Position numbers and translations under genes: made by a program. Source: Nemertoderma westbladi (taxonomy: Eukaryota; Animalia; Xenacoelomorpha). Taken from it: a DNA stretch of 64,000 nucleotides. Where the stretch lies: NCBI GenBank assembly GCA_032718475.1, contig JAUCBJ010006371.1, positions 1-64,000 on the forward strand, read 5' to 3'. Positions within the stretch are counted from its first letter, which is position 1. Every line of letters starts with the position of its first letter. Shown piece by piece: positions 564-58,111 of this stretch. The notes beneath the pieces were generated by a model. It did no database searches and was not told the origin of the DNA. It was given only the letters and a program-made list of their open reading frames with translations.

Positions 564-815
564 CCAACCAATTCCTACCAACATGCGTTGCTACTCAATC
601 CATCATCCAATAGGATCCGCCGCCTTCCACCGTTCGTCCAATCAGATTGGAGCAGCCACAATCCGTCGTCTGTTTCACTGCTGCCTCCCAGCGGGACTGG
701 TAGGAATCCTATCACGAGGGTTGCTGTTACCCCACACACTGGTCTCCGAATTCGGGGTTGACAGACGGGATAAGGGTCGCCTTGGCAACGGGATTTACTT
801 TGCTAGTTCCGCGAG
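564..815 (+). CDS. PARP4: PARP4 exon (first visible): PARP catalytic domain, N-terminal part
   Basis: RRLFHCCLPAGLVGILSRGLLLP...DKGRLGNGIYF matches PARP4 LLHGS...VGILCRGLLLP...DVGNLGSGIYF. Acceptor ttccag| at 563 (less certain); donor ag|gtcagt at 816, phase 2. Upstream exons lie outside the window. Confidence 0.88.
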
Positions 816-1709: not shown

Positions 1710-1937
1710 CACTAGCATCAACTACTCAACACCTAACAGTTGCACCGGCACACGTTTCCTATTGGTTAATGAGGTTGTCCTTGGCAACGTGTTGGAGATA
1801 CATACAGAAGCACCCGAGCTCAGTGCGCCTCCTAGCGGATTCCATTCCGTTACTGGAGTGGCCTCTACACTCTCCATGGCAACCGACTTTGCCGATGAAG
1901 AGTTCGTAATTTACGACGCAAATCAGCAGAAAATTTG
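1710..1937 (+). CDS. PARP4: PARP4 exon: catalytic domain C-terminal part with catalytic Glu (DEEFVIY)
   Basis: tttttag|c acceptor; TSINYSTPNSCTGTRFLLVNEVVLG...SAPPSGFHSVTGV...TDFADEEFVIYDANQQKI matches PARP4 TSIKYS...TDFEDDEFVVYKTNQVKM; donor tg|gttagt. Confidence 0.93.
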
Positions 1938-21800: not shown

Positions 21801-22375
21801 TAGATTTACTTGTATTTTAGTTACATTGAGTTTATCTGTTAGATTTCCTTGTATTTTAGTTACATTGAGTTTATCTGTTAGATTTACTTGTATTTTAGTT
21901 ACTTTGAGTTTATCTGTTAGATTTACTTGTATTTTAGTTACATTGAGTTTATCTGTTAGATTTACTTGTATTTTAGTTACATTGAGTTTATCTGTTAGAT
22001 TTACTTGTATTTTAGTTCTTTGAGTTTATCTGTTAGATTTACTTGTATTTTAGTTACTTTGAGTTTATCTGTTAGATTTACTTGTATTTTAGTTACATTG
22101 AGTTTATCTGTTAGATTTCCTTGTATTTTAGTTACTTTGAGTTTATCTGTTAGATTTACTTGTATTTTAGTTACATTGAGTTTTTTTCTGTTAGATTTCC
22201 TTGTATTTTAGTTACATTGAGTTTTTTTATGTTAGATTTCCTTGTATGTTAGTTACATTGAGTTTATCTGTTAGATTTACTTGTATTTTAGTTACATTGA
22301 GTTTTTTTCTGTTAGATTTACTTGTATTTTAGTTACATTGAGTTTATCTGTTAGATTTACTTGTATTTTAGTTAC
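12900..22375. repeat. 39-bp satellite, right block (~243 copies), ending at the PARP4 splice acceptor
   Basis: Same unit as 1959-5515; the last copy runs directly into ttttag|TTACCTCATTGAGTTTACA. Confidence 0.98.
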
Positions 22376-22603
22376 CTCATTGAGTTTACACTGGAGGACG
22401 ACTCCCTCACACCTCTAACCCATTCCCTAACCTCCGACGATATTCCTTCTGCCGATATCGATAAACCTCTACCAGTAGATATCCCCCGGGTTACCACTGA
22501 CGACGCTTTGAGTAAATGCCCGTCGGGTTTATTGGCTGCCGGTACCGGGGTCCCCTTAAAGTCAGTCCACGTTCGCGCAAGGATTATCGATTTAGTTGCT
22601 CAG
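22372..22603 (+). CDS. PARP4: PARP4 exon: end of catalytic domain and start of VIT domain
   Basis: Phase-2 join gives C-YLIEFTLEDD (PARP4 KYIIKFSMPGD) ... GLLAAGTGVPLKSVHVRARIIDLVAQ; donor cag|gtaatt. Confidence 0.92.
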
Positions 22604-23111
22604 GTAATTAATGTATTTATTCGAAAATGGAAATGTTTTTGCTATGGATTAGGCCTGTTAGTTACCGATACATCCAACATTTCGGAATTACTTTCATTTT
22701 TTAACAATCATGACCGGTTTACTTAAACTGGAAAAGTGGCATAGAGTATATATTGTAAACTATTGGTAAAAGGAAGTTAATGTAAACTATTATTTTGCCG
22801 TTAGGTCAGTGAATTCGTACAAAATCTGACGACTTATTTCCACTGCGGTCCCCCCAGAACTGAACTGGTACGACCTAGAATATAATGATATTTGTAATTT
22901 TTTTATTCTCGCAGAATATTTTTTTTAACTTCGTCTTATTAGTTTCTTTATGTTATAGCACCTTTTTTCAGGGTCAGGTCGGAGGAGGCATTATTCATCA
23001 GGGAGTTCAGGAAGTATTATTTTTGTGCATCAAACTACATGGACTTACATAACATTAATAATTTATACCATAAATAAAAGTCATGTTTATTTATTTTTAT
23101 CATATATTAAG

Positions 23112-23330
23112 GTTGTAGTCCTTCAGGAGTATTACAATCAGAGAGATGAAGCGGTGGAAGCCAAGTTTGTGTTTCCATTGGACGAATCGTCGGCAGTTTG
23201 TGGGTTCGAAGCGTTTATCAACGGTAAACACATCGTTGGTGAGGTCAAGGAGAAACAGGTGGCTCATAGAGAGTACAAGGAGGCAGTGGAGAAGGGCCAT
23301 GGTGCTTATCTAATGGATGAGGACAGGCCA
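23112..23330 (+). CDS. PARP4: PARP4 exon: VIT domain
   Basis: EAKFVFPLDESSAVCGFEAFINGKHIVGEVKEK...GHGAYLM is near-identical to the PARP4 VIT domain; aag| acceptor, |gtgagt donor, 73 codons. Confidence 0.95.
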
Positions 23331-24025
23331 GTGAGTCGAAGTATATATCTTAATGGGGTTCTAGAATAGATTGTAGTCAGGCCTACGAAGCTATATTCAT
23401 TATATTTAGTAAATTAATCAAGCTCGAAGTTACGAGCTCATTCGCATTTTGAGTGTTTGATGTTCTTGCTGGTAATACATTACAATGATTGTTATTTATT
23501 ACAAAGTATTAGGTTTGCTTCGTTTATAACTTGGAGTTGCGAACTATACCCCTTCCCAACCTGATTAAAAAAACATATCACGGCTCGTACTATACCAGTG
23601 GGGACCCCACAACCACACCATTATTTGCTGGATTTACTGTAGCACCACCATTTCGCAGAAAGTGCAAAATCCAAACATGTTCTATCATCTTATTAATCTA
23701 GCTATACATTTTCGTTAAGATTAAGCACATCTTAGCAAAGTTGGTGTTGACGTGTGGGTGGGATCGAACTGGTTGGAAGTTTGGCGGCATTCCGATAAGG
23801 AGTTCGCAGAAAAAATAAATACTTCCTTATATAGTCCTCAGGACCTGATATCTTGCATGTCTGCAACATCCTTATGGCCTGTTATTGCTACTACAGCTAC
23901 TGTAAGTTATCTTTGAGATATAGTTATGGATATTACTGTCTGAATGTTGGAGTAGGGCCCATCTATAACAATTTTCTTAATTTGCTTTTGAACTTTTTAG
24001 TTTACGTTAATTATTTTGTATTTAG

Positions 24026-24190
24026 GATGTATTTACTGTAACCATTGGTAACCTACCGCCAGACTCAACTGCACTCATTAAGATCACCTACGTCACGGAG
24101 GTGCCAGTTTCCTGTGATCAAGTTGTTTTCTCTCTGCCATCTAGTGTCGCTCCGTGGCAAACTAAAGAACTCACAATGGAATCCACCCAG
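24026..24190 (+). CDS. PARP4: PARP4 exon: VIT C-terminus
   Basis: DVFTVTIGNLPPDSTALIKITYVTEV...PSSVAPWQTKELTMESTQ; tttag| acceptor, cag|gttagc donor, 55 codons (missed by the ORF track). Confidence 0.93.
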
Positions 24191-24940: not shown

Positions 24941-25015
24941 AAACTAAATCACCGAGTTTACTTTTTGTCATTATCTGGTGATTTAATAGTTTTATATTTA
25001 TTTATCCCCATTAAG

Positions 25016-26122
25016 GATTGTGTTACCAAGGAAACACCAATCGGTGAATTCCACGGAGACAGCAGCGTCCAGGTTTCCTTGGAGATGGCATCGGAGATCC
25101 GAAGCGTGGAGAGCTCGAGCCACCCAATCAGAACGAAGCTGACCGCAACCAAGGCTACCGTGGAGACTCTGATTGGCTGCAATCTGTCCGAGGGTTTCCG
25201 CCTGTCCATCTCATTGGTCGAGATCCACGCGCCCCGTATGTGGGTGGAGGAGTGGAGCGAGGAGCGGGGTACCGGTGCCCCCTCCTCCGACCCCCACTCC
25301 GCCTCCTCCTCCGCCCCCCATCCCGAGGCCTGTATGCTAGCTTTCTACCCCGAGTTCGACGCCCAATCCCGCACCGACTACCGACTACTCATCCTGCTCG
25401 ACGTCTCCAACTCGATGGACCTCTCGAGCCTCCAGGAGGCGCGCACCCTCGCCTCCCTAGCTCTCCTCTCCCTCCATCGACGCTCCTCTTTCAACCTTGT
25501 CCTCTTCGCCTCCAGCTGGGCGGAGCTCTTCCCGGGCTTCGTAGAGGCGTCGCATAGCAACGTCCAATCAGCGATCGCGTTAGTTGCCTCGACAACGGGG
25601 GGTCGCGGTGCCACTGACCTAGTCGCGCCGTTGGAGGCCGCGGCTCAGCTCGCTGGCTCCCGATTGGTCAACGCCATGGTGATTACCGACGGACACGTAT
25701 CCAATGACGGCTCCGTTATGAACTGCATCCGGGCCAGGTCCAATAAACTGCGAGTGTTCCCCTGCGGGGTGGGCCGCTCCACCAATCGCTATCTACTCAA
25801 CCTGATCGCGAGGACCTCTAGCGGTTGCGCTGAGTACTTCGAGAGTAATAATCGAAGCAAGTGGCGACGCAAGATGGCGCTGCAATTCGAGAGGGTTGGC
25901 TCGCCGTCGTTGAAGCGAGTTCGTATCGAGTGGCAACTGTTCGGTGAGCGCGCCGACATCCTACAGGCGCCCCGGATAGTCAGCTCGCTGTTCAGCGGGA
26001 ACCGACTTGTAGTCTACGGGTTGCTTAGCAACTGTCGTCTAGCGACTCTGACCGCGGATATCGACGGACACGAAGTCTCGGCGGTTATCAGTTGTTCCGA
26101 ACTATCAGTTACTAGTGGGAAG
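25016..26122 (+). CDS. PARP4: PARP4 exon: vWA domain with intact MIDAS
   Basis: EIHAPRMWVE...EACMLAFYPEF, LLDVSNSM (DxSxS), GATDL, VITDGH, RVFPCGVG, QAP...SLFSGNRLVVYG; taag| acceptor, aag|gtttgt donor. Confidence 0.95.
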
Positions 26123-27975: not shown

Positions 27976-28094
27976 TTAAAGCTAAATATAAATATTGTAC
28001 CCTTTTCTAATTTTAGGTGCCCCTAATTAACACGCCTCACTGCAATTTAGTACCATTACATTAGTACATTAGGTTCCAACATAGATACATTTAG

Positions 28095-31000: not shown

Positions 31001-34000
31001 GGACCAGCACCACAACTCACATTATTACCTATGTTGGACCAGCGCCACAGCTCACATTATTACCATGTTGGACCAGCACCACAGCTCACATTATTACCAT
31101 GTTGGACCAGCACCAGAGCTCACATTATTACCTATGTTGGACCAGCACCACAGCTCACATTATTACCTATATTGGACCAGCACCGCAGCTCACATTATTA
31201 CCATGTTGGACCAGCACCACAGCTCACATTATCACCTATGTTGGACCAGCACCACAGCTCGCATTATTACCTATGTTGGACCAGCACCACAGCTCACATT
31301 ATTACCATGTTGGACCAGCACCACAGCTCACATTATTACCATGTTGGACCAGCACCACAGCTCACCTTATTACCTATATTGGACCAGCACCACAGCTAAC
31401 ATTATTACCATATTGGACCAGCACGACAGCTCACATTATTACCATGTTGGACCAGCACCACAGCTCACATTATTACCATGTTGGACCAGCACCACAGCTC
31501 ACATTATTACCATGTTGGACCAGCACCACAGCTCACATTATTACCATGTTGGACCAGCACCACAGCTCACATTATTACCATGTTGGACCAGCACCACAGC
31601 TCACATTATTACCATGTTGGACCAGCACCACATCTCACATTATTACCTATGTTGGACCAGCGCCACAGCTCACATTATTACCTATGTTGGACCAGCACCA
31701 CAGCTCGCATTATTACCTATGTTGGACCAGCACCACAGCTCACATTATTACCATGTTGGACCAGCACCACAGCTCACATTATTACCATGTTGGACCAGCA
31801 CCACAGCTCACCTTATTACCTATATTGGACCAGCACCACAGCTAACATTATTACCATATTGGACCAGCACGACAGCTCACATTATTACCATGTTGGACCA
31901 GCACCACAGCTCACATTATTACCATGTTGGACCAGCACCACAGCTCACATTATTACCATGTTGGACCAGCACCACAGCTCCCATTATTACCATGTTGGAC
32001 CAGCACCACAGCTCACATTATTACCATGTTGGACCAGCACCACAGCTCACATTATTACCATGTTGGACCAGCACCACAACTCACATTATTACCTATGTTG
32101 GACCAGCGCCACAGCTCACATTATTACCATGTTGGACCAGCACCACAGCTCACATTATTACCATGTTGGACCAGCACCAGAGCTCACATTATTACCTATG
32201 TTGGACCAGCACCACAGCTCACATTATTACCATGTTGGACCAGCACCACAGATCACATTATTACCTATGTTGGACCAGCACCACAGCTCACATTATTACC
32301 AATGTTGGACCAGAACCACAGCTCACATTATTACCTATGTTGGACCAGCACCACAGCTCACATTATTACCTATGTTGGACCAGCACCACAGCTCACATTA
32401 TTACCTATTTTGGACCAGCACCACAGCTCACATTATTACCACGTTGCCCCAGCACCACGGCTCACATTATTACCATGTTGGACCAGCACCACAGCTCACA
32501 TTATTACCTATGTTGGACCAGCACCACAGCTCACAATATTACCTATATTGGACAGCAGTACAGCTCACATTATTACCTAGGTTAGACCAGCACCACAGCT
32601 CACATTATTACCTATGTTGGACCAGCACCACAGCTCACATTATTACCATGTTGGACCAGCACCACAGCTCACATTATTACCATTTTGGACCAGCACCACA
32701 GCTCACATTATTACCATTTTGGACCAGCACCACAGCTCACATTATTACCATGTTGGACCAGCACCACAGCTCACATTATTACCATGTTGGACCAGCACCA
32801 CAGCTCACATTATTACCATGTTGGACCAGCACCACAGCTCACATTATTACAATGTTGGACCAGCACCACAGCTCACATTATTACCTATGTTGGACCAGCA
32901 CCACAGCTCACATTATTAGCTATATTGGACCAGCACCGCAGCTCACATTATTACCATGTTGGACCAGCACCACAGCTCACATTATCACCTATGTTGGACC
33001 AGCACCACAGCTCGCATTATTACCTATGTTGGACCAGCACCACAGCTCACATTATTACCATGTTGGACCAGCACCACAGCTCACATTATTACCATGTTGG
33101 ACCAGCACCACAGCTCACCTTATTACCTATATTGGACCAGCACCACAGCTAACATTATTACCATATTGGACCAGCACCACAGCTCACATTATTACCATGT
33201 TGGACCAGCACCACAGCTCACATTATTACCATGTTGGACCAGCACCACAGCTCACATTATTACCATGTTGGACCAGCACCACAGCTCACATTATTACAAT
33301 GTTGGACCAGCACCACAGCTCACATTATTACCTATGTTGGACCAGCACCACAGCTCACATTATTACCATGTTGGACCAGCACCACAGCTCACATTATTAC
33401 CATGTTGGACCAGCACCACAGCTCACATTATTACCATGTTGGACCAGCACCACAGCTCACATTATTACCATGTTGGACCAGCACCACAGCTCACATTATT
33501 ACCTATGTTGGACCAGCACCACAGCTCACATTATTACCTATTTTGGACCAGCACCACAGCTCACATTATTACCTATGTTGGACCAGCACCACAACTCACA
33601 TTATTACCTATGTTGGACCAGCGCCACAGCTCACATTATTACCATGTTGGACCAGCACCACAGCTCACATTATTACCATGTTGGACCAGCACCAGAGCTC
33701 ACATTATTACCTATGTTGGACCAGCACCACAGCTCACATTATTACCTATATTGGACCAGCACCGCAGCTCACATTATTACCATGTTGGACCAGCACCACA
33801 GCTCACATTATCACCTATGTTGGACCAGCACCACAGCTCGCATTATTACCTATGTTGGACCAGCACCACAGCTCACATTATTACCATGTTGGACCAGCAC
33901 CACAGCTCACATTATTACCATGTTGGACCAGCACCACAGCTCACCTTATTACCTATATTGGACCAGCACCACAGCTAACATTATTACCATATTGGACCAG

Positions 34001-37000
34001 CACGACAGCTCACATTATTACCATGTTGGACCAGCACCACAGCTCACATTATTACCATGTTGGACCAGCACCACAGCTCACATTATTACCATGTTGGACC
34101 AGCACCACAGCTCACATTATTACCATGTTGGACCAGCACCACAGCTCACATTATTACCATGTTGGACCAGCACCACAGCTCACATTATTACCATGTTGGA
34201 CCAGCACCACATCTCACATTATTACCTATGTTGGACCAGCGCCACAGCTCACATTATTACCTATGTTGGACCAGCACCACAGCTCGCATTATTACCTATG
34301 TTGGACCAGCACCACAGCTCACATTATTACCATGTTGGACCAGCACCACAGCTCACATTATTACCATGTTGGACCAGCACCACAGCTCACCTTATTACCT
34401 ATATTGGACCAGCACCACAGCTAACATTATTACCATATTGGACCAGCACGACAGCTCACATTATTACCATGTTGGACCAGCACCACAGCTCACATTATTA
34501 CCATGTTGGACCAGCACCACAGCTCACATTATTACCATGTTGGACCAGCACCACAGCTCCCATTATTACCATGTTGGACCAGCACCACAGCTCACATTAT
34601 TACCATGTTGGACCAGAACCACAGCTCACATTATTACCTATGTTGGACCAGCACCACAGCTCACATTATTACCTATGTTGGACCAGCACCACAGCTCACA
34701 TTATTACCTATTTTGGACCAGCACCACAGCTCACATTATTACCACGTTGCCCCAGCACCACGGCTCACATTATTACCATGTTGGACCAGCACCACAGCTC
34801 ACATTATTACCTATGTTGGACCAGCACCACAGCTCACAATATTACCTATATTGGACAGCAGTACAGCTCACATTATTACCTAGGTTAGACCAGCACCACA
34901 GCTCACATTATTACCTATGTTGGACCAGCACCACAGCTCACATTATTACCATGTTGGACCAGCACCACAGCTCACATTATTACCATTTTGGACCAGCACC
35001 ACAGCTCACATTATTACCATTTTGGACCAGCACCACAGCTCACATTATTACCATGTTGGACCAGCACCACAGCTCACATTATTACCATGTTGGACCAGCA
35101 CCACAGCTCACATTATTACCATGTTGGACCAGCACCACAGCTCACATTATTACAATGTTGGACCAGCACCACAGCTCACATTATTACCTATGTTGGACCA
35201 GCACCACAGCTCACATTATTAGCTATATTGGACCAGCACCGCAGCTCACATTATTACCATGTTGGACCAGCACCACAGCTCACATTATCACCTATGTTGG
35301 ACCAGCACCACAGCTCGCATTATTACCTATGTTGGACCAGCACCACAGCTCACATTATTACCATGTTGGACCAGCACCACAGCTCACATTATTACCATGT
35401 TGGACCAGCACCACAGCTCACCTTATTACCTATATTGGACCAGCACCACAGCTAACATTATTACCATATTGGACCAGCACCACAGCTCACATTATTACCA
35501 TGTTGGACCAGCACCACAGCTCACATTATCACCTATGTTGGACCAGCACCACAGCTCGCATTATTACCTATGTTGGACCAGCACCACAGCTCACATTATT
35601 ACCATGTTGGACCAGCACCACAGCTCACATTATTACCATGTTGGACCAGCACCACAGCTCACCTTATTACCTATGTTGGACCAGCACCACAGCTCACATT
35701 ATTACCATATTGGACCAGCACCACAGCTCACATTATTACCATGTTGGACCAGCACCACAGCTCACATTATTACCATGTTGGACCAGCACCACAGCTCACA
35801 TTATTACCATGTTGGACCAGCACCACAGCTCACATTATTACCTATGTTGGACCAGCACCACAGCTCACATTATTACCTATTTTGGACCAGCACCACAGCT
35901 CACATTATTACCTATGTTGGACCAGCACCACAACTCACATTATTACCTATGTTGGACCAGCGCCACAGCTCACATTATTACCATGTTGGACCAGCACCAC
36001 AGCTCACATTATTACCATGTTGGACCAGCACCAGAGCTCACATTATTACCTATGTTGGACCAGCACCACAGCTCACATTATTACCTATATTGGACCAGCA
36101 CCGCAGCTCACATTATTACCATGTTGGACCAGCACCACAGCTCACATTATCACCTATGTTGGACCAGCACCACAGCTCGCATTATTACCTATGTTGGACC
36201 AGCACCACAGCTCACATTATTACCATGTTGGACCAGCACCACAGCTCACATTATTACCATGTTGGACCAGCACCACAGCTCACCTTATTACCTATATTGG
36301 ACCAGCACCACAGCTAACATTATTACCATATTGGACCAGCACGACAGCTCACATTATTACCATGTTGGACCAGCACCACAGCTCACATTATTACCATGTT
36401 GGACCAGCACCACAGCTCACATTATTACCATGTTGGACCAGCACCACAGCTCACATTATTACCATGTTGGACCAGCACCACAGCTCACATTATTACCATG
36501 TTGGACCAGCACCACAGCTCACATTATTACCATGTTGGACCAGCACCACATCTCACATTATTACCTATGTTGGACCAGCGCCACAGCTCACATTATTACC
36601 TATGTTGGACCAGCACCACAGCTCGCATTATTACCTATGTTGGACCAGCACCACAGCTCACATTATTACCATGTTGGACCAGCACCACAGCTCACATTAT
36701 TACCATGTTGGACCAGCACCACAGCTCACCTTATTACCTATATTGGACCAGCACCACAGCTAACATTATTACCATATTGGACCAGCACGACAGCTCACAT
36801 TATTACCATGTTGGACCAGCACCACAGCTCACATTATTACCATGTTGGACCAGCACCACAGCTCACATTATTACCATGTTGGACCAGCACCACAGCTCCC
36901 ATTATTACCATGTTGGACCAGCACCACAGCTCACATTATTACCATGTTGGACCAGCACCACAGCTCACATTATTACCATGTTGGACCAGCACCACAACTC

Positions 37001-40000
37001 ACATTATTACCTATGTTGGACCAGCGCCACAGCTCACATTATTACCATGTTGGACCAGCACCACAGCTCACATTATTACCATGTTGGACCAGCACCAGAG
37101 CTCACATTATTACCTATGTTGGACCAGCACCACAGCTCACATTATTACCATGTTGGACCAGCACCACAGATCACATTATTACCTATGTTGGACCAGCACC
37201 ACAGCTCACATTATTACCAATGTTGGACCAGAACCACAGCTCACATTATTACCTATGTTGGACCAGCACCACAGCTCACATTATTACCTATGTTGGACCA
37301 GCACCACAGCTCACATTATTACCTATTTTGGACCAGCACCACAGCTCACATTATTACCACGTTGCCCCAGCACCACGGCTCACATTATTACCATGTTGGA
37401 CCAGCACCACAGCTCACATTATTACCTATGTTGGACCAGCACCACAGCTCACAATATTACCTATATTGGACAGCAGTACAGCTCACATTATTACCTAGGT
37501 TAGACCAGCACCACAGCTCACATTATTACCTATGTTGGACCAGCACCACAGCTCACATTATTACCATGTTGGACCAGCACCACAGCTCACATTATTACCA
37601 TTTTGGACCAGCACCACAGCTCACATTATTACCATGTTGGACCAGCACCACAGCTCACATTATTACCATGTTGGACCAGCACCACAGCTCACATTATTAC
37701 AATGTTGGACCAGCACCACAGCTCACATTATTACCTATGTTGGACCAGCACCACAGCTCACATTATTACCATGTTGGACCAGCACCACAGCTCACATTAT
37801 TACCATGTACGACCAGCACCACAGCTCACATTATTACCATGTTGGACCAGCACCACAGCTCACATTATTACCTATGTTGGACCAGCACCACAGCTCACAT
37901 TATTAGCTATATTGGACCAGCACCGCAGCTCACATTATTACCATGTTGGACCAGCACCACAGCTCACATTATCACCTATGTTGGACCAGCACCACAGCTC
38001 GCATTATTACCTATGTTGGACCAGCACCACAGCTCACATTATTACCATGTTGGACCAGCACCACAGCTCACATTATTACCATGTTGGACCAGCACCACAG
38101 CTCACCTTATTACCTATATTGGACCAGCACCACAGCTAACATTATTACCATATTGGACCAGCACCACAGCTCACATTATTACCATGTTGGACCAGCACCA
38201 CAGCTCACATTATTACCATGTTGGACCAGCACCACAGCTCACATTATTACCATGTTGGACCAGCACCACAGCTCACATTATTACAATGTTGGACCAGCAC
38301 CACAGCTCACATTATTACCTATGTTGGACCAGCACCACAGCTCACATTATTACCATGTTGGACCAGCACCACAGCTCACATTATTACCATGTTGGACCAG
38401 CACCACAGCTCACATTATTACCATGTTGGACCAGCACCACAGCTCACATTATTACCTATGTTGGACCAGCACCACAGCTCACATTATTACCTATTTTGGA
38501 CCAGCACCACAGCTCACATTATTACCTATGTTGGACCAGCACCACAACTCACATTATTACCTATGTTGGACCAGCGCCACAGCTCACATTATTACCATGT
38601 TGGACCAGCACCACAGCTCACATTATTACCATGTTGGACCAGCACCAGAGCTCACATTATTACCTATGTTGGACCAGCACCACAGCTCACATTATTACCT
38701 ATATTGGACCAGCACCGCAGCTCACATTATTACCATGTTGGACCAGCACCACAGCTCACATTATCACCTATGTTGGACCAGCACCACAGCTCGCATTATT
38801 ACCTATGTTGGACCAGCACCACAGCTCACATTATTACCATGTTGGACCAGCACCACAGCTCACATTATTACCATGTTGGACCAGCACCACAGCTCACCTT
38901 ATTACCTATATTGGACCAGCACCACAGCTAACATTATTACCATATTGGACCAGCACGACAGCTCACATTATTACCATGTTGGACCAGCACCACAGCTCAC
39001 ATTATTACCATGTTGGACCAGCACCACAGCTCACATTATTACCATGTTGGACCAGCACCACAGCTCACATTATTACCATGTTGGACCAGCACCACAGCTC
39101 ACATTATTACCATGTTGGACCAGCACCACAGCTCACATTATTACCATGTTGGACCAGCACCACATCTCACATTATTACCTATGATGGACCAGCGCCACAG
39201 CTCACATTATTACCTATGTTGGACCAGCACCACAGCTCGCATTATTACCTATGTTGGACCAGCACCACAGCTCACATTATTACCATGTTGGACCAGCACC
39301 ACAGCTCACATTATTACCATGTTGGACCAGCACCACAGCTCACCTTATTACCTATATTGGACCAGCACCACAGCTAACATTATTACCATATTGGACCAGC
39401 ACGACAGCTCACATTATTACCATGTTGGACCAGCACCACAGCTCACATTATTACCATGTTGGACCAGCACCACAGCTCACATTATTACCATGTTGGACCA
39501 GCACCACAGCTCACATTATTACCATGTTGGACCAGCACCACAGCTCACATTATTACCATGTTGGACCAGCACCACAGCTCACATTATTACCATGTTGGAC
39601 CAGCACCACAACTCACATTATTACCTATGTTGGACCAGCGCCACAGCTCACATTATTACCATGTTGGACCAGCACCACAGCTCACATTATTACCATGTTG
39701 GACCAGCACCAGAGCTCACATTATTACCTATGTTGGACCAGCACCACAGCTCACATTATTACCATGTTGGACCAGCACCACAGATCACATTATTACCTAT
39801 GTTGGACCAGCACCACAGCTCACATTATTACCAATGTTGGACCAGAACCACAGCTCACATTATTACCTATGTTGGACCAGCACCACAGCTCACATTATTA
39901 CCTATGTTGGACCAGCACCACAGCTCACATTATTACCTATTTTGGACCAGCACCACAGCTCACATTATTACCACGTTGCCCCAGCACCACGGCTCACATT

Positions 40001-41800
40001 ATTACCATGTTGGACCAGCACCACAGCTCACATTATTACCTATGTTGGACCAGCACCACAGCTCACAATATTACCTATATTGGACAGCAGTACAGCTCAC
40101 ATTATTACCTAGGTTAGACCAGCACCACAGCTCACATTATTACCTATGTTGGACCAGCACCACAGCTCACATTATTACCTATGTTGGACCAGCACCACAG
40201 CTCACATTATTACCTATGTTGGACCAGCACCACAGCTCACATTATTACCATGTTGGACCAGCACCACAGCTACATTATTACCTATGTTGGACCAGCCAGC
40301 ACCACAGCTCACATTATTACCTATGTTGGACCAGCACCACAGCTCACATTATTACCTATGTTGGACCAGCACCACAGCTCACATTATTACCATGTTGGAC
40401 CAGCACCACAGCCCACATTATTACCTATGTTGGACCAGCACCACAGCTCACATTATTACCTATGTTGGACCAGCACCACAGCTCACATTATTACCTATGT
40501 TGGACCAGCACCACAGCTCACATTATTACCATGTTGGACCAGCACCACAGCTCACATTATTACCATATTGGACCAGCACCACAGCTCACATTATTACCTA
40601 TGTTGGACCAGCACCACAGCTCACATTATTACCATTTTGGACCAGCACCACAGCTCACATTATTACCATGTTGGACCATCACCACAGCTCACATTATTAC
40701 CTATGTTGGACCAGCACCACAGCTCACATTATTACCTATGTTGGACCAGCACCACAGCTCACATTATTACCTATGTTGGACCAGCACCACAGCTCACATT
40801 ATTACCTATGTTGGACCAGCACCACAGCTCACATTATTACCTATGTTGGACCAGCACCACAGCTCACATTATTACCATGTTGGACCAGCACCACAGCTCA
40901 CATTATTACCATGTTGGACCAGCACCACAGCTCACATTAATACCTATGTTGGACCAGCACCACAGCTCACATTAATACCTATGTTGGACCAGCACCACAG
41001 CTCACATTATTACCTATGTTGGGCCAGCACCACAGCTCACATTATTACCTATGTTGGACCAGCACCACAGCTCACATTATTACCTATGTTGGACCAGAAC
41101 CACAGCTCACATTATTACCATGTTGGACCAGCACCACAGCTCACATTATTACCTATGTTGGACCAGCACCACAGCTCACATTATTACCATGTTGGACCAG
41201 CACCACAGCTCACATTATTACCATGTTGGACCAGCACCACAGCTCACATTATTACCTATGTTGGACCAGCACCACAGCTCACATTATTACCATGTTGGAC
41301 CAGCACCACAGCTCACATTAATACCTATGTTGGACCAGCACCACAGCTCACATTATTACATATGTTGGACCAGCACCACAGCTCACATTATTACCTATGT
41401 TGGACCAGCACCACAGCTCACATTATTACCTATGTTGGACCAGAACCACAGCTCACATTATTACCATGTTGGACCAGCACCACAGCTCACATTATTACCT
41501 ATGTTGGACCAGCACCACAGCTCACATTATTACCTATGTTGGGCCAGCACCACAGCTCACATTATTACCTATGTTGGACCAGCACCACAGCTCACATTAT
41601 TACCTATGTTGGACCAGAACCACAGCTCACATTATTACCATGTTGGACCAGCACCACAGCTCACATTATTACCTATGTTGGACCAGCACCACAGCTCACA
41701 TTATTACCATGTTGGACCAGCACCACAGCTCACATTATTACCTATGTTGGGCCAGCACCACAGCTCACATTATTACCTATGTTGGAACAGTACCACAGCT
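28095..41800. repeat. 34/35-bp satellite (~400 copies) ATGTTGGACCAGCACCACAGCTCACATTATTACC(T) with higher-order structure
   Basis: Direct inspection; lies in PARP4 intron 26123-42239. Confidence 0.98.
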
Positions 41801-42239: not shown

Positions 42240-42422
42240 ATGATCCATCAGCTAGCAGCTCGAGCTCTTATTCGCGATTGGGAACAGGGGTTGCTTGGCA
42301 ACACAGCTGTGGAACACGAGTCATTGAAAATGACAACAAAATCGACAATTATAGAACTCAGCCAAATCTATCAAATAGTCACGGAATTTACTAGCTTTAT
42401 CGCTGTTGAGAAAAGAGAAAAA
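42240..42422 (+). CDS. PARP4: PARP4 exon: post-vWA helical region
   Basis: MIHQLAARALIRDWEQG...IIELSQIYQIVTEFTSFIAVEKR matches PARP4 MIHKLAARALIRDYEDG...TQFTSFVAVEKR; ttccag| acceptor, |gttagt donor. Confidence 0.95.
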
Positions 42423-42607
42423 GTTAGTCGTAATCTATTAGTAATGTATTGTGTTATTGTTATATTTTATATTTTTTTAACTGTTTGTTTCTGTGGAATT
42501 TCTAATAATTTGTACCTCGCCTTAATTTTCCAATTTCAAGGGGTTTTAATTAACAAATGAGATTTTACAATTGTAATATTGTATTTGTAACCATTACGTA
42601 TTTACAG

Positions 42608-42808
42608 GATGAAGTATTTGACAGCTCTGCTGGTCCAGATATGTTCGAGTTATTGGCGATTGAGGACGTGGACAGTCTGAAGTATATGGGATGGACTGAA
42701 GGGGACCCCGAACCAGAAGATATAGCCGATATAATATTCGACCCCAACGATGTTATGGATGCGGCTTCTGCCGCTGAGACTATAGGCGGTCTAATTAAAG
42801 ATGCAAAG
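42608..42808 (+). CDS. PARP4: PARP4 exon (EDVDSLKYMGW motif)
   Basis: ELLAIEDVDSLKYMGW resembles PARP4 ELIAKEDVDFLPYMSW; tacag| acceptor, aag|gtattt donor, 67 codons. Confidence 0.9.
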
Positions 42809-43209: not shown

Positions 43210-45586
43210 GTAGCCGAATCTTCCAATATAAAGGAAGCGGAACGCGCATACCGTGAGGCAATGGAAGCTTGCGATAATATTATTGGAGATGAATTACTAA
43301 TGAAACCGATTGCAGTAAAGGCATTCCTCGATAGCAAAATAGCCTGGTTGCGGTTTCTTATCAATTTCAAGAAAGAAGAGGCCTCAACTATAGAGGGTAT
43401 CGTCGAGGCTTTCGATTGGCTATCGCAGGTTGACATGGATGAAATCCCAGAGGATCATCGAGGCGATTACTTCGAGTTAATAGACGATGCCGTTTGTGAG
43501 TTAGGCGAGCTCGGATTTTGGGAGTTGTTGTGTGATTTGGTTGGAACTGAAGAACGCCTTGACATAAACGTTCATTTTGGAGAACTGGTAGAGTCGATGA
43601 AGAAATTCTCCCTACCGGTAGGTGTTAGGCATCTACTCGATGCTTCTCTAGAACTGTGTGAGGAACAGAAATCTAAGGCCTTAGAGGAATTGGGCCATGA
43701 TTATAGTACAAGTGCGTCTTCATCTTCTCTTGATGAGGGGGAGGATGATGATAGAGATGTTTGTGAGTGTTACGATCCTGATCTCACAGGATCTTCCAGC
43801 TACTCCGACGTTGATGAGGCCGTCGCCCCGATTGTTATGGATCTCGGCGGGTTTACCGTCAAGGCGGGATTCGCGGGATACGAGAAACCCTCGGTGACGG
43901 TTCCTACGGCGGTGGGGCGTCCCAGACACCAGGGCGTCATGGTCGGAATGGGTCAGAAGGACAGCTACGTTGGTTCCGAAGCCGTGGGTAGCGTGCCTTC
44001 GGTAGGGAAGGTTCTACCGGAAACCGGTAATTCCGTGAAGAAGAAGAAGAAGAAGGCACGGGTAGTATCGAATGAACCGGTGTTCAACTTGCAGCGAGAA
44101 GTCGCCGAAAAAGCGCCAATTTATACAGAAATAGCGAGGAGGCGGATTGCAGGGGAAGGTGGCGGTTTCGGTGGCGGTGGTGACAAGGGGGCGTCCTTCA
44201 AGGAGGCGCCGATAACAGACTCAAAGGAATTGGGGGTCTCTGAAATTATCACTGGTTCATTATTTGGTGCGTCGAATAAAATGATGGTGCAAGCCGTTCC
44301 ATCCAAGCGTTTGTCAACTTTGAATGCCGCGGCGGCCCCGCAGCAATATTCGCAAAGAACCTACAAATTTGCGGCAGCACCACCGGCACCACCTCCACCA
44401 GGACTTCCTGCGTCATTCGGACCACCACCATCTCAATCTCCAACATACAGTGCAACATCACCTATATCACTAGGATATGGTGCACCACCGTATTCTATTG
44501 CAGCCGCAACTTATGGCACGCCACAAGCATCACCATTTATTTCTGCACCTAGACCGCCAGCACCTCAGCAACACTCCATATTATTTGGTGCACCACCTGC
44601 TCCATCACGACCACTACATCAACCTCCTCCTCCACCTGCACGCAAATCATTTCTACTCGGTGCCCCTCAAGCACTACAATATGCTTCACATATAGGATGG
44701 CGTGCAGAACCACAACCTTCCTTTACATTCGGGGCACCAATACCATCATCAGCTCCGCTCCCGCGGGCAAGAGGTGGAGCATTACCTCAATCACAAGATT
44801 TCGCTCCATCACCGCCCAAACCGGCTCCAGTACAATCCATCACACAACCGCCCTCGCCCCCGCAAGCCGCTACCAAACCTGAATATTTCTGTAATATTTC
44901 GAGAGCTAAGCGAGTAATTACAAGTAAATCAGTGGTGGATAGGAAAGCCAGCGAAATTACATCAGCGATGGATGCAGAAGAATTTGGAGGACTTAGAAAG
45001 ACGACGTCTAGTGGGATTAAGCCATCGTGGAGATCTGTACCTACCCCTGGGGGTAACTTATTGATGGCCGCCGATTATGTTCCTTTCGCAGCCGAAATAC
45101 CCCAGCGAGTTCTATTAAAGAAATCGACGGATCGCGATGCCGTGGTCCTACCTGCAGGAGGTAAAAGGATTCCGGTACCATCGGGACGTGGGGGTTCGCG
45201 TCGGTTCGCCGCCCCTGTCGTCCCCCGACCGTCCATGCGGGTCTCGGATTTCAACGACGAGTTACTAATGGCGAGGAATACGATGTCTCTAGATGATGAA
45301 GATGAGTTGATGGCCGAACTGGATGAGATGGAAGAGGATGGCGACGACGAGTGGGACGACGGAAGTCCAACTCTGTACGATACCGGGTTTAGCTATATAG
45401 ACATGGCTCTCTCTAAGAGTGACCCCGCGGTTCCCAGTATATGTGTAGCACAGCAACTAAAGGCTCTCTGGGAACTCCAAAATAGTGAGGGTTATTGGGA
45501 ACTTTCAGTAGAAGTCGGCGAACTGATTGATATACCGTGCCACCAGATTCTGGCTAATCTAGTTGACGCCGGCCTAATGTCGTTAG
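43210..45586 (+). CDS. PARP4: PARP4 large linker exon (14-3-3-like helices, actin N-terminal fragment, Pro-rich region, WH2/acidic-like motifs, start of MVP-binding domain)
   Basis: 2377-nt open frame; ctag| acceptor, g|gtaagt donor (phase 1); ends [21 protein letters not shown]...AGLMSLG, resembling PARP4 LLSLQTEDGFWKLTPELGLIL...KGIQSLG. Confidence 0.92.
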
Positions 45587-45644
45587 GTAAGTTTATGAAT
45601 AATTTGTTTTGTTTATAATACATTTAGACGCTACCGCCAACCGA

Positions 45645-47426
45645 CCATCGATATGTCCGAGACAGACCGACGATATGTCCGACAGACCGACGATATGTCC
45701 GACAGACCGACGATATGACCGACAGACCGACGATATGTCCGACATACCGACGATATGTCCGACATACCGACGATATGTCCGACAGACCGACGATATGTCC
45801 GACGATATATCCGACGATATGACCGACAGACCGACGATATGTCCGACATACCGACGATATGTCCGACAGACCGACGATATGTCCGACGATATATCCGACG
45901 ATATGACCGACAGACCGACGATATGTCCGACAGACCGACGATATGTCCGACAGAACGACGATATGTCCGACAGACCGACGATGTGTGCGACAGACCGACG
46001 ATGTGTCCGACACACCGACGATATGTCCGACAGACCGACGCTATGTCTGACAGAGCGACGATATGTCCGACAGACCGATGCTATGTCCGACAGACCGACG
46101 ATATGTCCGACAGACCGACGATATGACCGACAGACCGACGATATGTCCGACATACCGACGATATGTCCGACATACCGACGATATGTCCGACAGACCGACG
46201 ATATGTCCGACGATATATCCGACGATATGACCGACAGACCGACGATATGTCCGACATACCGACGATATGTCCGACAGACCGACGATATGTCCGACGATAT
46301 ATCCTACGATATGACCGACAGACCGACGATATGTCCGACAGACCGACGATATGTCCGACAGAACGACGATATGTCCGACAGACCGACGATGTGTGCGACA
46401 GACCGACGATGTGTCCGACACACCGACGATATGTCCGACAGACCGACGCTATGTCTGACAGAGCGACGATATGTCCGACAGACCGATGCTATGTCCGACA
46501 GACCAACGATATGTCCGACACACCGACGCTATGTCCGACAGACCGACGATATGTCCGACAGACCGATGCTATGTCCGACAGACCGACGCTATGTCCGACA
46601 GACAGACGATGTGTCCGACAGACCGACGATATATCCGACAAACCGACGCTATGGCCGACAGACCGACGATATGTCCGTCCGATCGACGATATGTCCGACC
46701 GACCGACGATATATCTGACAGACCGACGATATGTCCGACAGACCGACGATATGTCCGACAGACCGACGATTTGTCCGACCGACCGACGATATGTCCGACA
46801 GACCGACGATATGTCCGACAGACCGACGATATGTCTGACAGACCGACGATATGTCCGACAGACCCACGATATGTCCGACAGACCGACCGTCTCCCGTCTG
46901 ACGATACGTCCGACAGACCGACGATATGTCCGACAGACCGACGATATGTCCGACAGACCCACGATATGTCCTACAGACCGACGATATGTCCGACAGACCG
47001 ACGATATGTCCGACAGACCGACCGTCTCCCGTCTGACGATACGTCCGACAGACCGACGATATGTCCGACAGACCGACGATATGTCCGACAGACCGACGAT
47101 ATGTCAGACAGACCGACGATATGTCCGACAGACCGACGATATGTCTGACAGACCGACGATATGTCCGACAGACCCACGATATGTCCTACAGACCGACGAT
47201 ATGTCCGACAGACCGACGATATGTCCGACAGACCGACCGTCTCCCGTCTGACGATACGTCCGACAGACCGACGATATGTCCGACAGACCGACGATATGTC
47301 CGACAGACCGACGATATGTCCGACAGACCGACGATATGTCAGACAGACCGACGATATGTCCGACAGACCGACGATATGTCCGACAGACCGGACCGTCTCC
47401 CGTCTGACGATACTTCCGACAGACCG
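45645..47426. repeat. 20-bp CpG-rich minisatellite GACAGACCGACGATATGTCC filling the last PARP4 intron
   Basis: About 85 copies; internal 408-bp duplication (ORF-track peptides repeat at 45755 and 46163). Confidence 0.96.
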
Positions 47427-47453
47427 GTTATTTTCCGATTATTTCTGTTCCAG

Positions 47454-47725
47454 GTATTCGCACAACGGACTCGACTACGAGATTCGTTGCCACACTGTTC
47501 GTCCTTCTTTATATATCGAACCTGGATGCTTTTCTCGACGGTGTTGACCTCACGGTCGCTGACCTTAAAAATCTAAAATTCCTCATTGTCAGTGACTTTG
47601 AAGGTCGTCTTGGTAAGGCTGTTGAATTTGTTAAGAAGATTAATGGAAGTTTCCCATTGGTTCTTACCAGTTTGGAATTGGGACGGAATATTCCTGAGTC
47701 TTTAGATATGATAGTCGCAGAATAA
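47454..47725 (+). CDS. PARP4: PARP4 terminal exon: MVP-interacting C-terminus
   Basis: ttccag|gt join gives G-IRTTDSTTRFVATLFVLLYI...KAVEFVKKINGSFPLVLTSLELGRN...AE*, resembling PARP4 LIATMLVLQFI...QASEWVRRTEGQYPSICPRLELGND; TAA at 47723-47725. Confidence 0.9.
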
Positions 47726-55486: not shown

Positions 55487-57730
55487 CTATAACGCCGTTT
55501 CTTTTTTGTTATTAATAACAAAAGTGTAGTCAAGGGCTGACGTTGCTAGTGGAATTGAGGTCTTGATAGGAGCGGCGATGTCCCCATTGGTTGTCACCTT
55601 GGTAATCGCAATGTCGTCGCAAGCCTCGTAAAATTTTGAATTATCAAAGAAATTCGCCTGTGTGGAGGCGTTTGATTGGTAGGGGAGAGGGGACCCTTCG
55701 CAGGACCAATCAGGGATCGAGGATTGTCCGGACCAGCGTCTATCCCGCAACCCTATAACCTCATTGGTCGATGAGTGTGACATAATCTCCAGTGATTGGT
55801 CCTTAGGTTGTGGGTCTGGGGGCGCGAGTAGGGGGGAATCCGATAGCTTGCCGACTACTCCGTTACGCTTGGGTTTATTCAGCGAGCGGGATACCAAACT
55901 CAACATCTGTTGTATCTGGCGTTCGTGCCGTGTGAGTCGCACGGACACCCCGCTGTCGCTGTCCACGCCCCCGAGATGGGGCGACTCGCGCGCCGGCGGC
56001 CGGATCTCCCGGAGTACCGCGGAGAGATTCGACGGAAGACTCTGTTTTATTCTCTCATCGTCGCTGAACGCGCCGCTGTACGCGGAACCCCGCTCCAACG
56101 ACTCGGGAGTCACTTCGTATTTCATCGACTTTTTATCGGAAGCCGATTTGCTCTTAGTAATTGTATTACTATCTCCCGCTCTGGGTGATTTATTAGCGAG
56201 ACAATGGGTGGAGGTGGATGTCAATTGCCTCGATGTCCCTCCCCTGTATTCCCCTATCAATAGGTCTAGCATGCGGCTCTGTGCCGACAGCGAGGCGCAG
56301 ACACCAACCCCGGGGTTCCGAGACAACGATCTACTAGAGCAGCGGGGTTGCGCGACTACTGGCGGTTGAAGCGTCGCATCCGATATCTGTACCCATAGAT
56401 CGTCGGGAGTTTTTATTTCAGTTGTGGGATTTGTTTCGGGATTTTGGGTGTCTGGCAAGACGTTCAATATATCCTCAGTGCGTGGTGGCCCCCTTCCGTT
56501 GTGTAACTGAATCACTCTCGGGTTTGCACCGAAAGCCACTGCATTATTCTCTACAGGGGAAAATAAGAGTTTCTTTTTCATTTTTCGTGTTTTGTTGATA
56601 ACATTGCTGCCGAGTTTACAGAGCTCCTGGCGCAAAGAGGAATGTATTTTACCACCACTAGAGGGTTGAATGTCCTGGTCTATGATGGATATGGGGGAGT
56701 CGCCTTTACTGGATATAGAAAGAGACCGGGGGATGCCGGTGATTGGTGGGGGGAGACCTCCGCAGCTGCTCCCTGAGGTTGAGCAACTGAGCACGTGATT
56801 GGTCCGCGGTAGGTCGGGGCTACGGGAGGTAGACAAGGGGGGTCGGTCGTTAGGCAACGGGGGTTTACCGGAGGGACCCAACTTATTGCACACGACGCCG
56901 TTAGGGGTCGTATCTTCGAGAGGTTTGGAATCCTTCGAGGCGACTTCGTTGTCGGAGACCCCGGAGGAAGTATCGTTGGCCCGAGTATCGGTTGCTAAGG
57001 AAACCGGTACGCCGTAAGTGGCCAGTAGACGGACTATATCAGTGTGGCAACCTTTGAGCGCGAGTTTAAGAGGAGTTCGGTTGTAGCGGTCGGCGTGGTA
57101 CGGGTTGGCCCGGTAGGCCAGGAGGGTAGCGACAACGTCGCGATGGCCTTCCTGGGCCGCGATACACAAGGCCGTCGTATCCTGGTTGCAGCAGTGGTCT
57201 ATACGGGCCCCCTGGTTGAGCAGACGACCCACTATGGCGGCGTGACCCTGCCACGCAGCCGCCTGCAACGGGCTGCGTCGTTCCTTGTCGCAAGTGTTGG
57301 GCCGCGCGTGGTATTCCAGTAAGAGATTCACCATGGCCGTGTTGCCCTGCCAACAAGCGACGTGGAGTGGAGTCCTTCCCTGGTTGTCCTGACACTCTAC
57401 GTAGGCGTCGTTATCCAATAGGAACCGGGTCATCTGTAGCCGATTCTCTAGGGCCGTCATGTAGACTACCGATCTACCGTCACTGTCCCGCTGGTTGATG
57501 TTGGATCCCTTCATTAGGAACAGGTTGACCAGCTGGAAGTGGCCCTCCAACGCGGCAACCCGTATCGGCGACTGTTCCCCCAGGTCCCGGTGGTCCATCT
57601 TCGCTCCTCGGTTAATCAGCATCTTGCACGTGTCGATGTGGCCCTCGGAAGCGGAGAATATCAGCGCGGTTCGACCTTCCATGTCCGTGTCATCCACATT
57701 GGCGCCAGCGTCAATGATCGTTTGACATAC
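55487..57730 (-). CDS. ANKRD50: Terminal exon of an ANKRD50-like ankyrin repeat protein
   Basis: About 7 ankyrin repeats matching ANKRD50 (RVAALEGH, ALEN, LHVACWQG, LQAAAWQGH, DHCCNQ.TALCIAAQEGH); long Ser-rich tail; C-terminal KKETAL (ANKRD50 KKETPL). Acceptor ttcag|GTATGT at 57730, phase 0; TAG at 55487-55489. No upstream exon found in the window. Confidence 0.9.
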   Translation of the reverse strand, partial: VCQTIIDAGANVDDTDMEGRTALIFSASEGHIDTCKMLINRGAKMDHRDLGEQSPIRVAALEGHFQLVNLFLMKGSNINQRDSDGRSVVYMTALENRLQMTRFLLDNDAYVECQDNQGRTPLHVACWQGNTAMVNLLLEYHARPNTCDKERRSPLQAAAWQGHAAIVGRLLNQGARIDHCCNQDTTALCIAAQEGHRDVVATLLAYRANPYHADRYNRTPLKLALKGCHTDIVRLLATYGVPVSLATDTRANDTSSGVSDNEVASKDSKPLEDTTPNGVVCNKLGPSGKPPLPNDRPPLSTSRSPDLPRTNHVLSCSTSGSSCGGLPPPITGIPRSLSISSKGDSPISIIDQDIQPSSGGKIHSSLRQELCKLGSNVINKTRKMKKKLLFSPVENNAVAFGANPRVIQLHNGRGPPRTEDILNVLPDTQNPETNPTTEIKTPDDLWVQISDATLQPPVVAQPRCSSRSLSRNPGVGVCASLSAQSRMLDLLIGEYRGGTSRQLTSTSTHCLANKSPRAGDSNTITKSKSASDKKSMKYEVTPESLERGSAYSGAFSDDERIKQSLPSNLSAVLREIRPPARESPHLGGVDSDSGVSVRLTRHERQIQQMLSLVSRSLNKPKRNGVVGKLSDSPLLAPPDPQPKDQSLEIMSHSSTNEVIGLRDRRWSGQSSIPDWSCEGSPLPYQSNASTQANFFDNSKFYEACDDIAITKVTTNGDIAAPIKTSIPLATSALDYTFVINNKKETAL

Positions 57731-58111
57731 CTGAATAGATAAATAATAGCGAGGTGTTATTATTACGATGGCATTAACAATTACACGATTTGATCAATGT
57801 CATAATGCAGTGTATAGTACAATGCATAACTAATATTCAAAAAATTTAACATTATTTGATCTAGTTAAGTGAATTATTGGGTTAGATAATACTATTGAGG
57901 AGAAGAAAACAGAAGATGTACGATGTCTGTTTTGCGAGCAGCTAGACAGTGGTTCCTGTAACTAATGACTTGTTGTGCGAACATTGATGGTGACAACGGT
58001 TATTCCCGGGGGATCCCAAACTGTTCCACCTCCTGCTGCCATACACCACGAATCCATCCTGCATTCCTGCATCTCAAGGATTATTCAGGTTTTCCTTCAG
58101 TTGTTGGTTAC

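What the first reader, a model, noticed from the sequence alone, without database searches (positions are those of the whole stretch)
44038..45360. WASP-like layout after the actin fragment: basic - proline-rich - two WH2-like - helix - DDEWDD
Seen, in order: KKKKKK (44038-44055); poly-Pro region (~44330-44880, incl. PPPPP); [14 protein letters not shown] (~44962-45003); [17 protein letters not shown] (45085-45135, same I-x5-LK spacing as N-WASP DQIRQGIQLKSV); [11 protein letters not shown]; and EDGDDEWDD (DDEWDD at 45343-45360), matching the WASP C-terminal acidic Arp2/3-binding motif. Inference: either a nucleation-promoting-factor-like module or a mimic of one. The WH2 matches are degenerate (Pro in the helix), but their order and proximity to an actin fragment are suggestive.
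Basis: partly seen in the sequence, partly recalled or inferred. Interest (0 to 1): 0.7.

Follow-up and report, generated by a model that had tools for sequence, protein, structure and literature searches.

The report
Eroded WASP mimic in vault PARP
The stretch is part of the linker of a vault-associated enzyme gene (PARP4); several sponges carry a clear actin-nucleator-type motif at the same place, the copy here is likely a worn remnant rather than a working nucleator, and the linker may serve as bait built from copied pieces of the cell's own proteins.

Summary
They do not belong to a stand-alone WASP. They lie in the large linker exon (43210-45586) of an intact, 10-exon PARP4 (vault PARP) frame, between the VIT-VWA core and the C-terminal vault-docking domain. 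The C-A part is ambiguous: significant against one relative only, and partly Snf7-like. A working Arp2/3 activator is unlikely. The stronger signal is next door. The actin piece keeps 21 residues around the D-loop identical to actin, and this stretch is 90% identical across 30 PARP4s while its flanks drift. Relatives fill the same linker with pieces of ubiquitin, HSP70, 14-3-3, synaptobrevin and others. I infer a bait or decoy region; this is untested. Actin and 14-3-3 on PARP4 are in print; the bait reading was not found in my searches.

The parts
589..815 (+). PARP4 exon, first half of the catalytic domain (His and Tyr of the H-Y-E triad); 5' boundary not fixed; BRCT and regulatory domain not found in the window, presumably upstream
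   Evidence: Pfam PARP E 0.031; alignment; tblastn; splice model
1710..1937 (+). PARP4 exon, second half of the catalytic domain (Glu of the triad)
   Evidence: Pfam PARP E 1.3e-09
22372..24190 (+). Three exons (22372-22603 or 22612, 23112-23330, 24026-24190) encoding the VIT domain
   Evidence: Pfam VIT E 5e-24 and 0.0015
25016..26122 (+). Exon encoding the VWA domain (acceptor 25016 or 25031)
   Evidence: Pfam VWA_3 E 3e-16
42240..42808 (+). Two exons (42240-42422, 42608-42808) ending the conserved VIT-VWA core
   Evidence: tblastn 41-59% identity for the first exon in five relatives
43210..45586 (+). Large linker exon, positional counterpart (inferred) of human PARP4 exon 30; holds the whole finding
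   Evidence: open frame with AG acceptor and GT donor in phase
43213..43416 (+). Degenerate 14-3-3 C-terminal piece
   Evidence: profile from 11 PARP4 14-3-3 pieces: 13.1 bits, 0 of 2000 shuffles; no Pfam hit
43819..43995 (+). Actin N-terminal piece; 43912-43974 encodes 21 residues identical to actin, spanning the D-loop
   Evidence: Pfam Actin E 3.2e-08; per-position comparison
44038..44055 (+). Six-lysine run; a common PARP4 linker feature
   Evidence: 35 of 103 relatives have a run of 4 or more
44356..44875 (+). Proline-rich, predicted disordered region, with one heptad like the RNA polymerase II tail repeat at 44446-44466
   Evidence: composition; heptad pattern in 25 of 104 sequences including the window
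44962..45003 (+). First WH2-like candidate; not supported
   Evidence: best matrix score nearby 3.7, below nearly all shuffles
45076..45135 (+). Second WH2-like candidate; core motif spacing fits but the helix is broken by Pro; at most an eroded WH2
   Evidence: matrix score 6.2; 94% of shuffled linkers reach it
45244..45288 (+). C-helix-like segment; in register with the Halichondria C motif over its second half
   Evidence: pairwise score 63, 0 of 2000 blockwise shuffles; matrix score 2.6, background
45295..45339 (+). Acidic helix resembling the Snf7 piece in a Dysidea PARP4 linker (post hoc lead)
   Evidence: score 51, 5 of 2000 blockwise shuffles; pattern only in the window and P0202; no Pfam Snf7 hit
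45343..45360 (+). Acidic motif with Trp (45352-45354), A-motif-like but internal
   Evidence: sequence
45448..47725 (+). C-terminal MVP-binding (MINT) domain, split by intron 45587-47453; last exon 47454-47725 ends at a stop
   Evidence: profile of 17 PARP4 C-termini E 1.1e-28

Best explanation
The finding is the second half of the large linker exon of an intact PARP4 (vault PARP) gene; its WASP-like layout is likely an eroded copy of the WH2-C-A module that is clear in several sponge PARP4s, and the linker likely works as a bait region rather than an actin nucleator. Shown: gene identity, exon structure, the retained catalytic triad, the actin D-loop piece, a degenerate 14-3-3 piece, and intact WH2-C-A in relatives. 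Inferred: common descent of this C-A from that module (about 0.5). Inferred mechanism (about 0.35): the flexible linker between the VIT-VWA core and the vault-docking domain displays short copies of abundant host proteins that microbial proteases and effectors recognise; an attacker that binds or cuts a copy would be held by the VIT-VWA core, or would free the PARP half from its vault anchor to ADP-ribosylate targets. In this lineage the D-loop copy is kept exact while the WH2 copy has decayed, as turning-over baits would.
For: Gene: PARP, VIT, VWA and C-terminal domains in order, nine GT-AG introns, one open frame of 1729-1739 aa. WH2-C-A after poly-Pro and before the C-terminal domain in Oscarella, Dysidea, Amphimedon, Halichondria and Ephydatia; C-A in Capsaspora and Bolinopsis. 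The Dysidea module hits N-WASP (E 1.5e-5) and WAVE1 (E 0.017) in the PDB. Window C-A against Halichondria: 0 of 2000 shuffles. Actin piece: positions 36-57 are 90% identical to actin over 30 PARP4s, against 46% (6-20) and 61% (21-35). Among the 120 rows listed (hand count; isoforms and close species counted apart): actin 38, ubiquitin 17, HSP70 11, 14-3-3 10, synaptobrevin 5, EF-hand 3, acidic ribosomal P protein 3, and one each of polymerase II repeat, Snf7, PDZ, WH2, nucleoporin FG. Two Dysidea PARP4s with near-identical cores differ in cargo. In print: the mammalian exon is disordered, under positive selection and proposed as a pathogen interface (PMC4038475, passages); ITIH4 uses a proline-rich bait region and its VWA domain to trap proteases (PMC7793589, abstract and passages); a Serratia protease cuts actin at Gly42-Val43 (PMC7311988, start of abstract only).
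Against: The profile of eight PARP4 C-A modules does not recognise the window beyond blockwise shuffles (462 of 2000), while each held-out member passes (0-5 of 300). Six of seven pairwise C-A comparisons were not significant (P 0.055-0.18). Part of the segment fits a Snf7 piece instead. Three of eight sponge sequences (Corticium, Sycon, second Dysidea) lack the module, and the window's protein has no supported place in two trees, so descent is not shown. The homologue search was seeded with a region holding the actin piece, which inflates the actin count. An exact D-loop fits binding to actin or actin-binding proteins just as well as bait. No biochemical evidence for bait function exists here.
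Confidence: 0.45

Rival explanations
1. The segment is a working nucleation-promoting factor: the WH2-like motifs deliver G-actin and C-A activates Arp2/3, giving PARP4 or vaults their own actin nucleation.
For: Order poly-Pro, WH2-like, C-like, acidic Trp; two loose-pattern hits in 1% of shuffles; intact modules in five sponge PARP4s.
Against: WH2 scores at background, Pro inside the helix, no Pfam or PDB hit. The Trp motif is internal. Human PARP4 docks inside the vault cage through the adjoining domain (PMC12280208, passages), which would sequester the module unless PARP4 is free.
Confidence: 0.12
2. The layout is mostly coincidence in a fast-evolving low-complexity linker: Lys runs, poly-Pro and acidic Trp are generic, and the acidic helix is a captured Snf7 piece, with no WH2-C-A ancestry.
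For: Lys run in 35 of 103 and acidic Trp in 22 of 103 relatives; loose WH2 pattern 0.23 times per 186 residues even in folded cores; C-A profile not significant; Snf7 piece 5 of 2000 shuffles.
Against: Positional match to the sponge module, the 45-residue alignment to Halichondria C-A at 0 of 2000 shuffles, and the double pattern hit at about 1%.
Confidence: 0.3
3. The linker is a housekeeping scaffold: the D-loop copy, poly-Pro and WH2-C-A tether PARP4 or vaults to the actin cytoskeleton or recruit actin-binding proteins as substrates, with no defence role.
For: The D-loop copy is held from Capsaspora to tunicates; Perina 2014 read actin and actin-binding domains on PARP4 as a cytoskeletal link (PMC4245714 section 3.1.2).
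Against: It does not explain the turnover of unrelated cargo (ubiquitin, HSP70, synaptobrevin, Snf7, P protein), the absence of the actin piece from the vertebrate rows, or positive selection on the exon in mammals.
Confidence: 0.2

Closest known systems
PARP4 / vault PARP (clade 5), including the 14-3-3- and actin-bearing type of Perina et al. 2014 (PMC4245714)
   Same: PARP-VIT-VWA-linker-MVP-binding domain order; 14-3-3 and actin pieces in the linker; H-Y-E triad
   Different: Long-branched sequence (49% best identity in the core). The text read names actin or actin-binding domains but never WH2 or WASP (0 occurrences), and does not say the actin is a D-loop-centred piece. Its Fig. 1B could not be seen.
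Human PARP4 exon 30 region (Daugherty et al. 2014, PMC4038475)
   Same: Largest exon, proline-rich, just before the MVP-binding domain, highly divergent
   Different: About 790 residues here against about 360, with recognisable host-protein pieces
WASP/N-WASP/WAVE VCA module
   Same: Order poly-Pro, WH2-like, helix, acidic Trp; clear match for sponge PARP4s
   Different: Here internal, WH2 unrecognisable, no WH1, CRIB or WHD domain detected
ITIH4 protease trap (PMC7793589); integrated decoys of plant NLRs and NLRP1/CARD8 tripwires (recalled, from no call)
   Same: VIT-VWA core followed by a proline-rich exposed region; host-target mimics attached to an effector domain
   Different: Intracellular, carries a PARP domain and a vault anchor; no trapping shown

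Membership tests
PARP4 | PARP catalytic domain with H-Y-E | tested here: met
PARP4 | VIT followed by VWA | tested here: met
PARP4 | C-terminal MVP-binding domain | tested here: met
   own profile of 17 relatives, E 1.1e-28
PARP4 | N-terminal BRCT | not testable with these tools
   no tblastn match in the window, presumably upstream; no genome held
PARP4 | Intact spliced frame | tested here: met
   predicted splicing, not confirmed by reads
WASP-family nucleation-promoting factor | N-terminal WH1, WHD or CRIB regulatory domain | tested here: not met
   Pfam finds only Actin on the exon; upstream domains are PARP4's
WASP-family nucleation-promoting factor | Proline-rich region | tested here: met
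   also generic in PARP4 linkers
WASP-family nucleation-promoting factor | WH2 motif (amphipathic helix plus leucine-basic core) | tested here: not met
   Pfam negative; matrix 6.2 and 3.7 against 40.6-49.8; only a loose recalled pattern matches
WASP-family nucleation-promoting factor | Central amphipathic helix ending in basic residues | tested here: inconclusive
   matrix background, one significant pairwise match, profile not significant
WASP-family nucleation-promoting factor | Acidic motif with Trp | tested here: met
   45343-45360
WASP-family nucleation-promoting factor | VCA at the C-terminus | tested here: not met
   167 residues follow the Trp
WASP-family nucleation-promoting factor | Binds G-actin and activates Arp2/3 | not testable with these tools
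ITIH4-type bait trap (works-like only) | VIT-VWA core followed by a proline-rich exposed region | tested here: met
ITIH4-type bait trap (works-like only) | Cleavage-triggered, VWA-dependent complex with the attacker | not testable with these tools
   bench assay needed

The most novel reading that the evidence does not exclude
The PARP4 linker is an integrated bait array of animals and their unicellular relatives: it repeatedly captures short copies of host proteins attacked by microbial enzymes (actin D-loop, 14-3-3, ubiquitin, HSP70, synaptobrevin, calmodulin-like EF-hands, ribosomal P-stalk tail, polymerase II repeat, Snf7, WASP VCA) and couples their engagement to ADP-ribosylation or trapping in the vault, giving vaults a defence function. 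The WASP-like stretch here is one decaying bait.
Probability: 0.3. Interest if true: 0.85.

Novelty: new variant of a known kind. Interest (0 to 1): 0.5.

Why it matters
Vault function is still open (stated in PMC13100048 and PMC4038475, passages read). The mammalian PARP4 linker was proposed to meet pathogens, but it has no recognisable motifs to test. Invertebrate and sponge linkers do: an exact actin D-loop copy, a full WH2-C-A module and a rotating set of host-protein pieces give defined sites to mutate. For the finding as posed the result is more modest: not a new WASP, but a PARP4 linker with at most a worn copy of a module that is clear in sponges.

Tried and rejected
Stand-alone WASP or bacterial mimic gene: rejected, the frame is an exon of PARP4. 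Pseudogene: rejected, no stop or shift in the model. Pfam WH2 on the exon and sub-pieces: none. PDB search with residues 44899-45402 and 45235-45369: 0 hits at E<=10; 14-3-3-like part: one chance hit. Search of 1.84 billion representatives: all 150 listed hits have their best stretch over the actin piece, none covers the WASP-like tail. Atlas features for residues 560-802: best 0.80, uninformative. Search with the Halichondria tail found only itself. Sequencing runs: no RNA holder listed. No genome held. Two trees left the protein unplaced (both quick trees). Complex prediction with actin was not available and the single-chain fold was not available: no verdict. Atlas look-up of the neighbouring ankyrin gene did not complete. 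Rfam: 0 matches. Earlier scan findings: none relevant. Literature searches that did not find WH2/VCA on PARP4 or a bait reading; the library lacks most subscription papers, and figures and supplements of the papers read were not seen.

Full report
1. Observation. The quoted motifs are all in one frame at the stated places. The frame is open from 43210 to 45618. Canonical splice sites at 43210 and 45586 make it an exon. Two hits of a loose WH2 pattern (recalled, from no call) in residues 560-745 occur in 1.0% of 3000 shuffles, and an acidic-embedded Trp in 0.1-2.1%. The layout is thus somewhat beyond chance, on post hoc tests. Its parts are also common among PARP4 linkers: Lys runs in 35 of 103 relatives, acidic Trp in 22 of 103.

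2. The gene. The window is eukaryotic, with introns filled by satellite arrays. Pfam finds PARP, VIT and VWA pieces upstream on the same strand, and tblastn with five named PARP4s maps them in order. Ten exons from 589 to 47725 join through nine GT-AG introns into one open frame of 1729-1739 residues, depending on alternative sites. The H-Y-E triad is kept. A profile of 17 PARP4 C-termini matches from 45448 to the stop at E 1.1e-28. In human PARP4 this domain docks inside the vault cage (PMC12280208, passages). The finding therefore lies in the linker between core and anchor, the positional counterpart of human exon 30, which is disordered and under positive selection (PMC4038475, passages). 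The protein is long-branched, 49% identical to its best match in the core, with no supported sister in two quick trees of 48 and 25 rows. I cannot name its lineage beyond animal or close relative (inferred).

3. The WASP idea in relatives. Among the 120 rows listed of 302 hits, five sponge PARP4s (Oscarella, Dysidea, Amphimedon, Halichondria, Ephydatia) carry WH2, C helix and acidic tract after poly-Pro and before the C-terminal domain; in Ephydatia the tract ends in a P-protein-like tail without Trp. Three other sponge sequences examined do not (Corticium, Sycon, second Dysidea). Pfam WH2 passes its cut-off in Oscarella and is sub-threshold in three more. The Dysidea module hits N-WASP at E 1.5e-5 and WAVE1 at E 0.017. 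Capsaspora and Bolinopsis carry C-A without WH2; Mytilus has a WH2-like piece scoring 30-37.

4. The window's copy. On a matrix of six sponge WH2s, held-out members score 40.6-49.8. The C candidate scores 2.6 against 14.8-22.7 for held-out members. A gapped profile of eight C-A modules gives 67 of 2000 whole shuffles and 462 of 2000 blockwise shuffles at or above the window, while held-out members give 0-5 of 300. One of seven pairwise tests is strong: Halichondria aligns over 45 residues, from the C helix to the Trp, at 0 of 2000 blockwise shuffles; the other six give P 0.055-0.18. Residues 696-710 also resemble the Snf7 piece in a second Dysidea PARP4 (5 of 2000), a post hoc lead without a Pfam hit. 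The reading is an eroded or partly overwritten C-A with no working WH2. No close relative was found to test constraint.

5. What the linker does keep. A degenerate 14-3-3 piece opens the exon (0 of 2000 shuffles). The actin piece is shared by 38 of 119 sequences including the window; the search was seeded with this region, so the share is inflated. Within the piece, positions 36-57 of the reference actin are 90% identical across 30 PARP4s (about one per genus, chosen for having the piece), against 46% and 61% for the two stretches before and 33% after. The window keeps 21 of these residues exactly. The stretch spans the D-loop (established knowledge), which includes the Gly42-Val43 bond cut by a Serratia protease (PMC7311988, start of abstract). 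Relatives carry other host pieces: by hand count of the 120 rows, ubiquitin 17, HSP70 11, 14-3-3 10, synaptobrevin 5, EF-hand 3, acidic P protein 3, single cases of polymerase II repeat, Snf7, PDZ, WH2 and FG repeat (positions in the linker confirmed for the proteins scanned). Two Dysidea PARP4s with core branch lengths 0.009 and 0.027 differ in cargo.

6. Mechanism. I commit to a bait region. PARP4 shares its VIT-VWA core with the ITIH family (PMC10539598, passages). ITIH4 is cut in a proline-rich region and then holds the protease through its VWA domain (PMC7793589, abstract and passages). By analogy, inferred and untested, an enzyme that binds or cuts a copied host site would be trapped, or would release the PARP half from the vault anchor. 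That several cargo types are known targets or cofactors of microbial toxins is recalled, not tested. The rivals are a working nucleator (0.12), coincidence with a Snf7 piece (0.3) and a cytoskeletal scaffold (0.2); the last two are not fully exclusive of the best reading.

7. Novelty. PARP4 with 14-3-3 and with actin or actin-binding domains is in print (PMC4245714, section 3.1.2 read whole). The text has no WH2 or WASP, but its Fig. 1B and supplement were not seen. Eight searches found no paper describing VCA modules in PARP4, the D-loop-only conservation or a bait reading; subscription papers are largely missing from the library. Verdict: observation confirmed, interpretation partly supported, new variant of a known kind, interest 0.5. 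The bait-array reading has probability about 0.3 and interest 0.85 if true.

Noticed in passing
window 24136-24941: A 61-bp tandem array (13.3 copies) begins inside the coding end of exon 24026-24190 and repeats that exon end with its splice donor into the intron.
   Followed up: partly
window 1959-5515, 12900-22375, 28091-41800, 45649-47390: The PARP4 introns are inflated by satellite arrays (39, 34 and 20 bp units); the long ORFs listed there are repeat artefacts. One 39-bp array runs up to the acceptor at 22372.
   Followed up: yes
window 55490-57793, minus strand: Open frame of 768 codons with ankyrin repeats (Pfam Ank_2 E 2.7e-45); an exon of a neighbouring gene.
   Followed up: partly
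window 9772-10600: Frames on both strands that look like a degenerate DDE-type transposase remnant inside a PARP4 intron (by eye; no meaningful Pfam hit).
   Followed up: partly
P0005, P0013: Proteins with BRCT, TIG, DUF4062, NACHT, TPR and a full-length actin domain at the C-terminus; an NLR-like layout with an integrated actin that could be a parallel decoy fusion.
   Followed up: no
P0008-P0010, P0012: Nup133-actin fusions in fish records, probably merged gene models of neighbours.
   Followed up: no
P0007 and P0202: Two Dysidea PARP4s with near-identical cores but different linker cargo (actin, synaptobrevin and WH2-C-A against Snf7).
   Followed up: partly
P0133, P0026: Shorter proteins from unnamed sources with VWA5A-like ends (by eye) also carry the actin piece, so it may extend beyond PARP4.
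   Followed up: no
P0006 1235-1272, P0223 1731-1770: C-A-like segments at other linker positions in a cnidarian-grouping protein and in a ctenophore that also has two actin pieces.
   Followed up: partly
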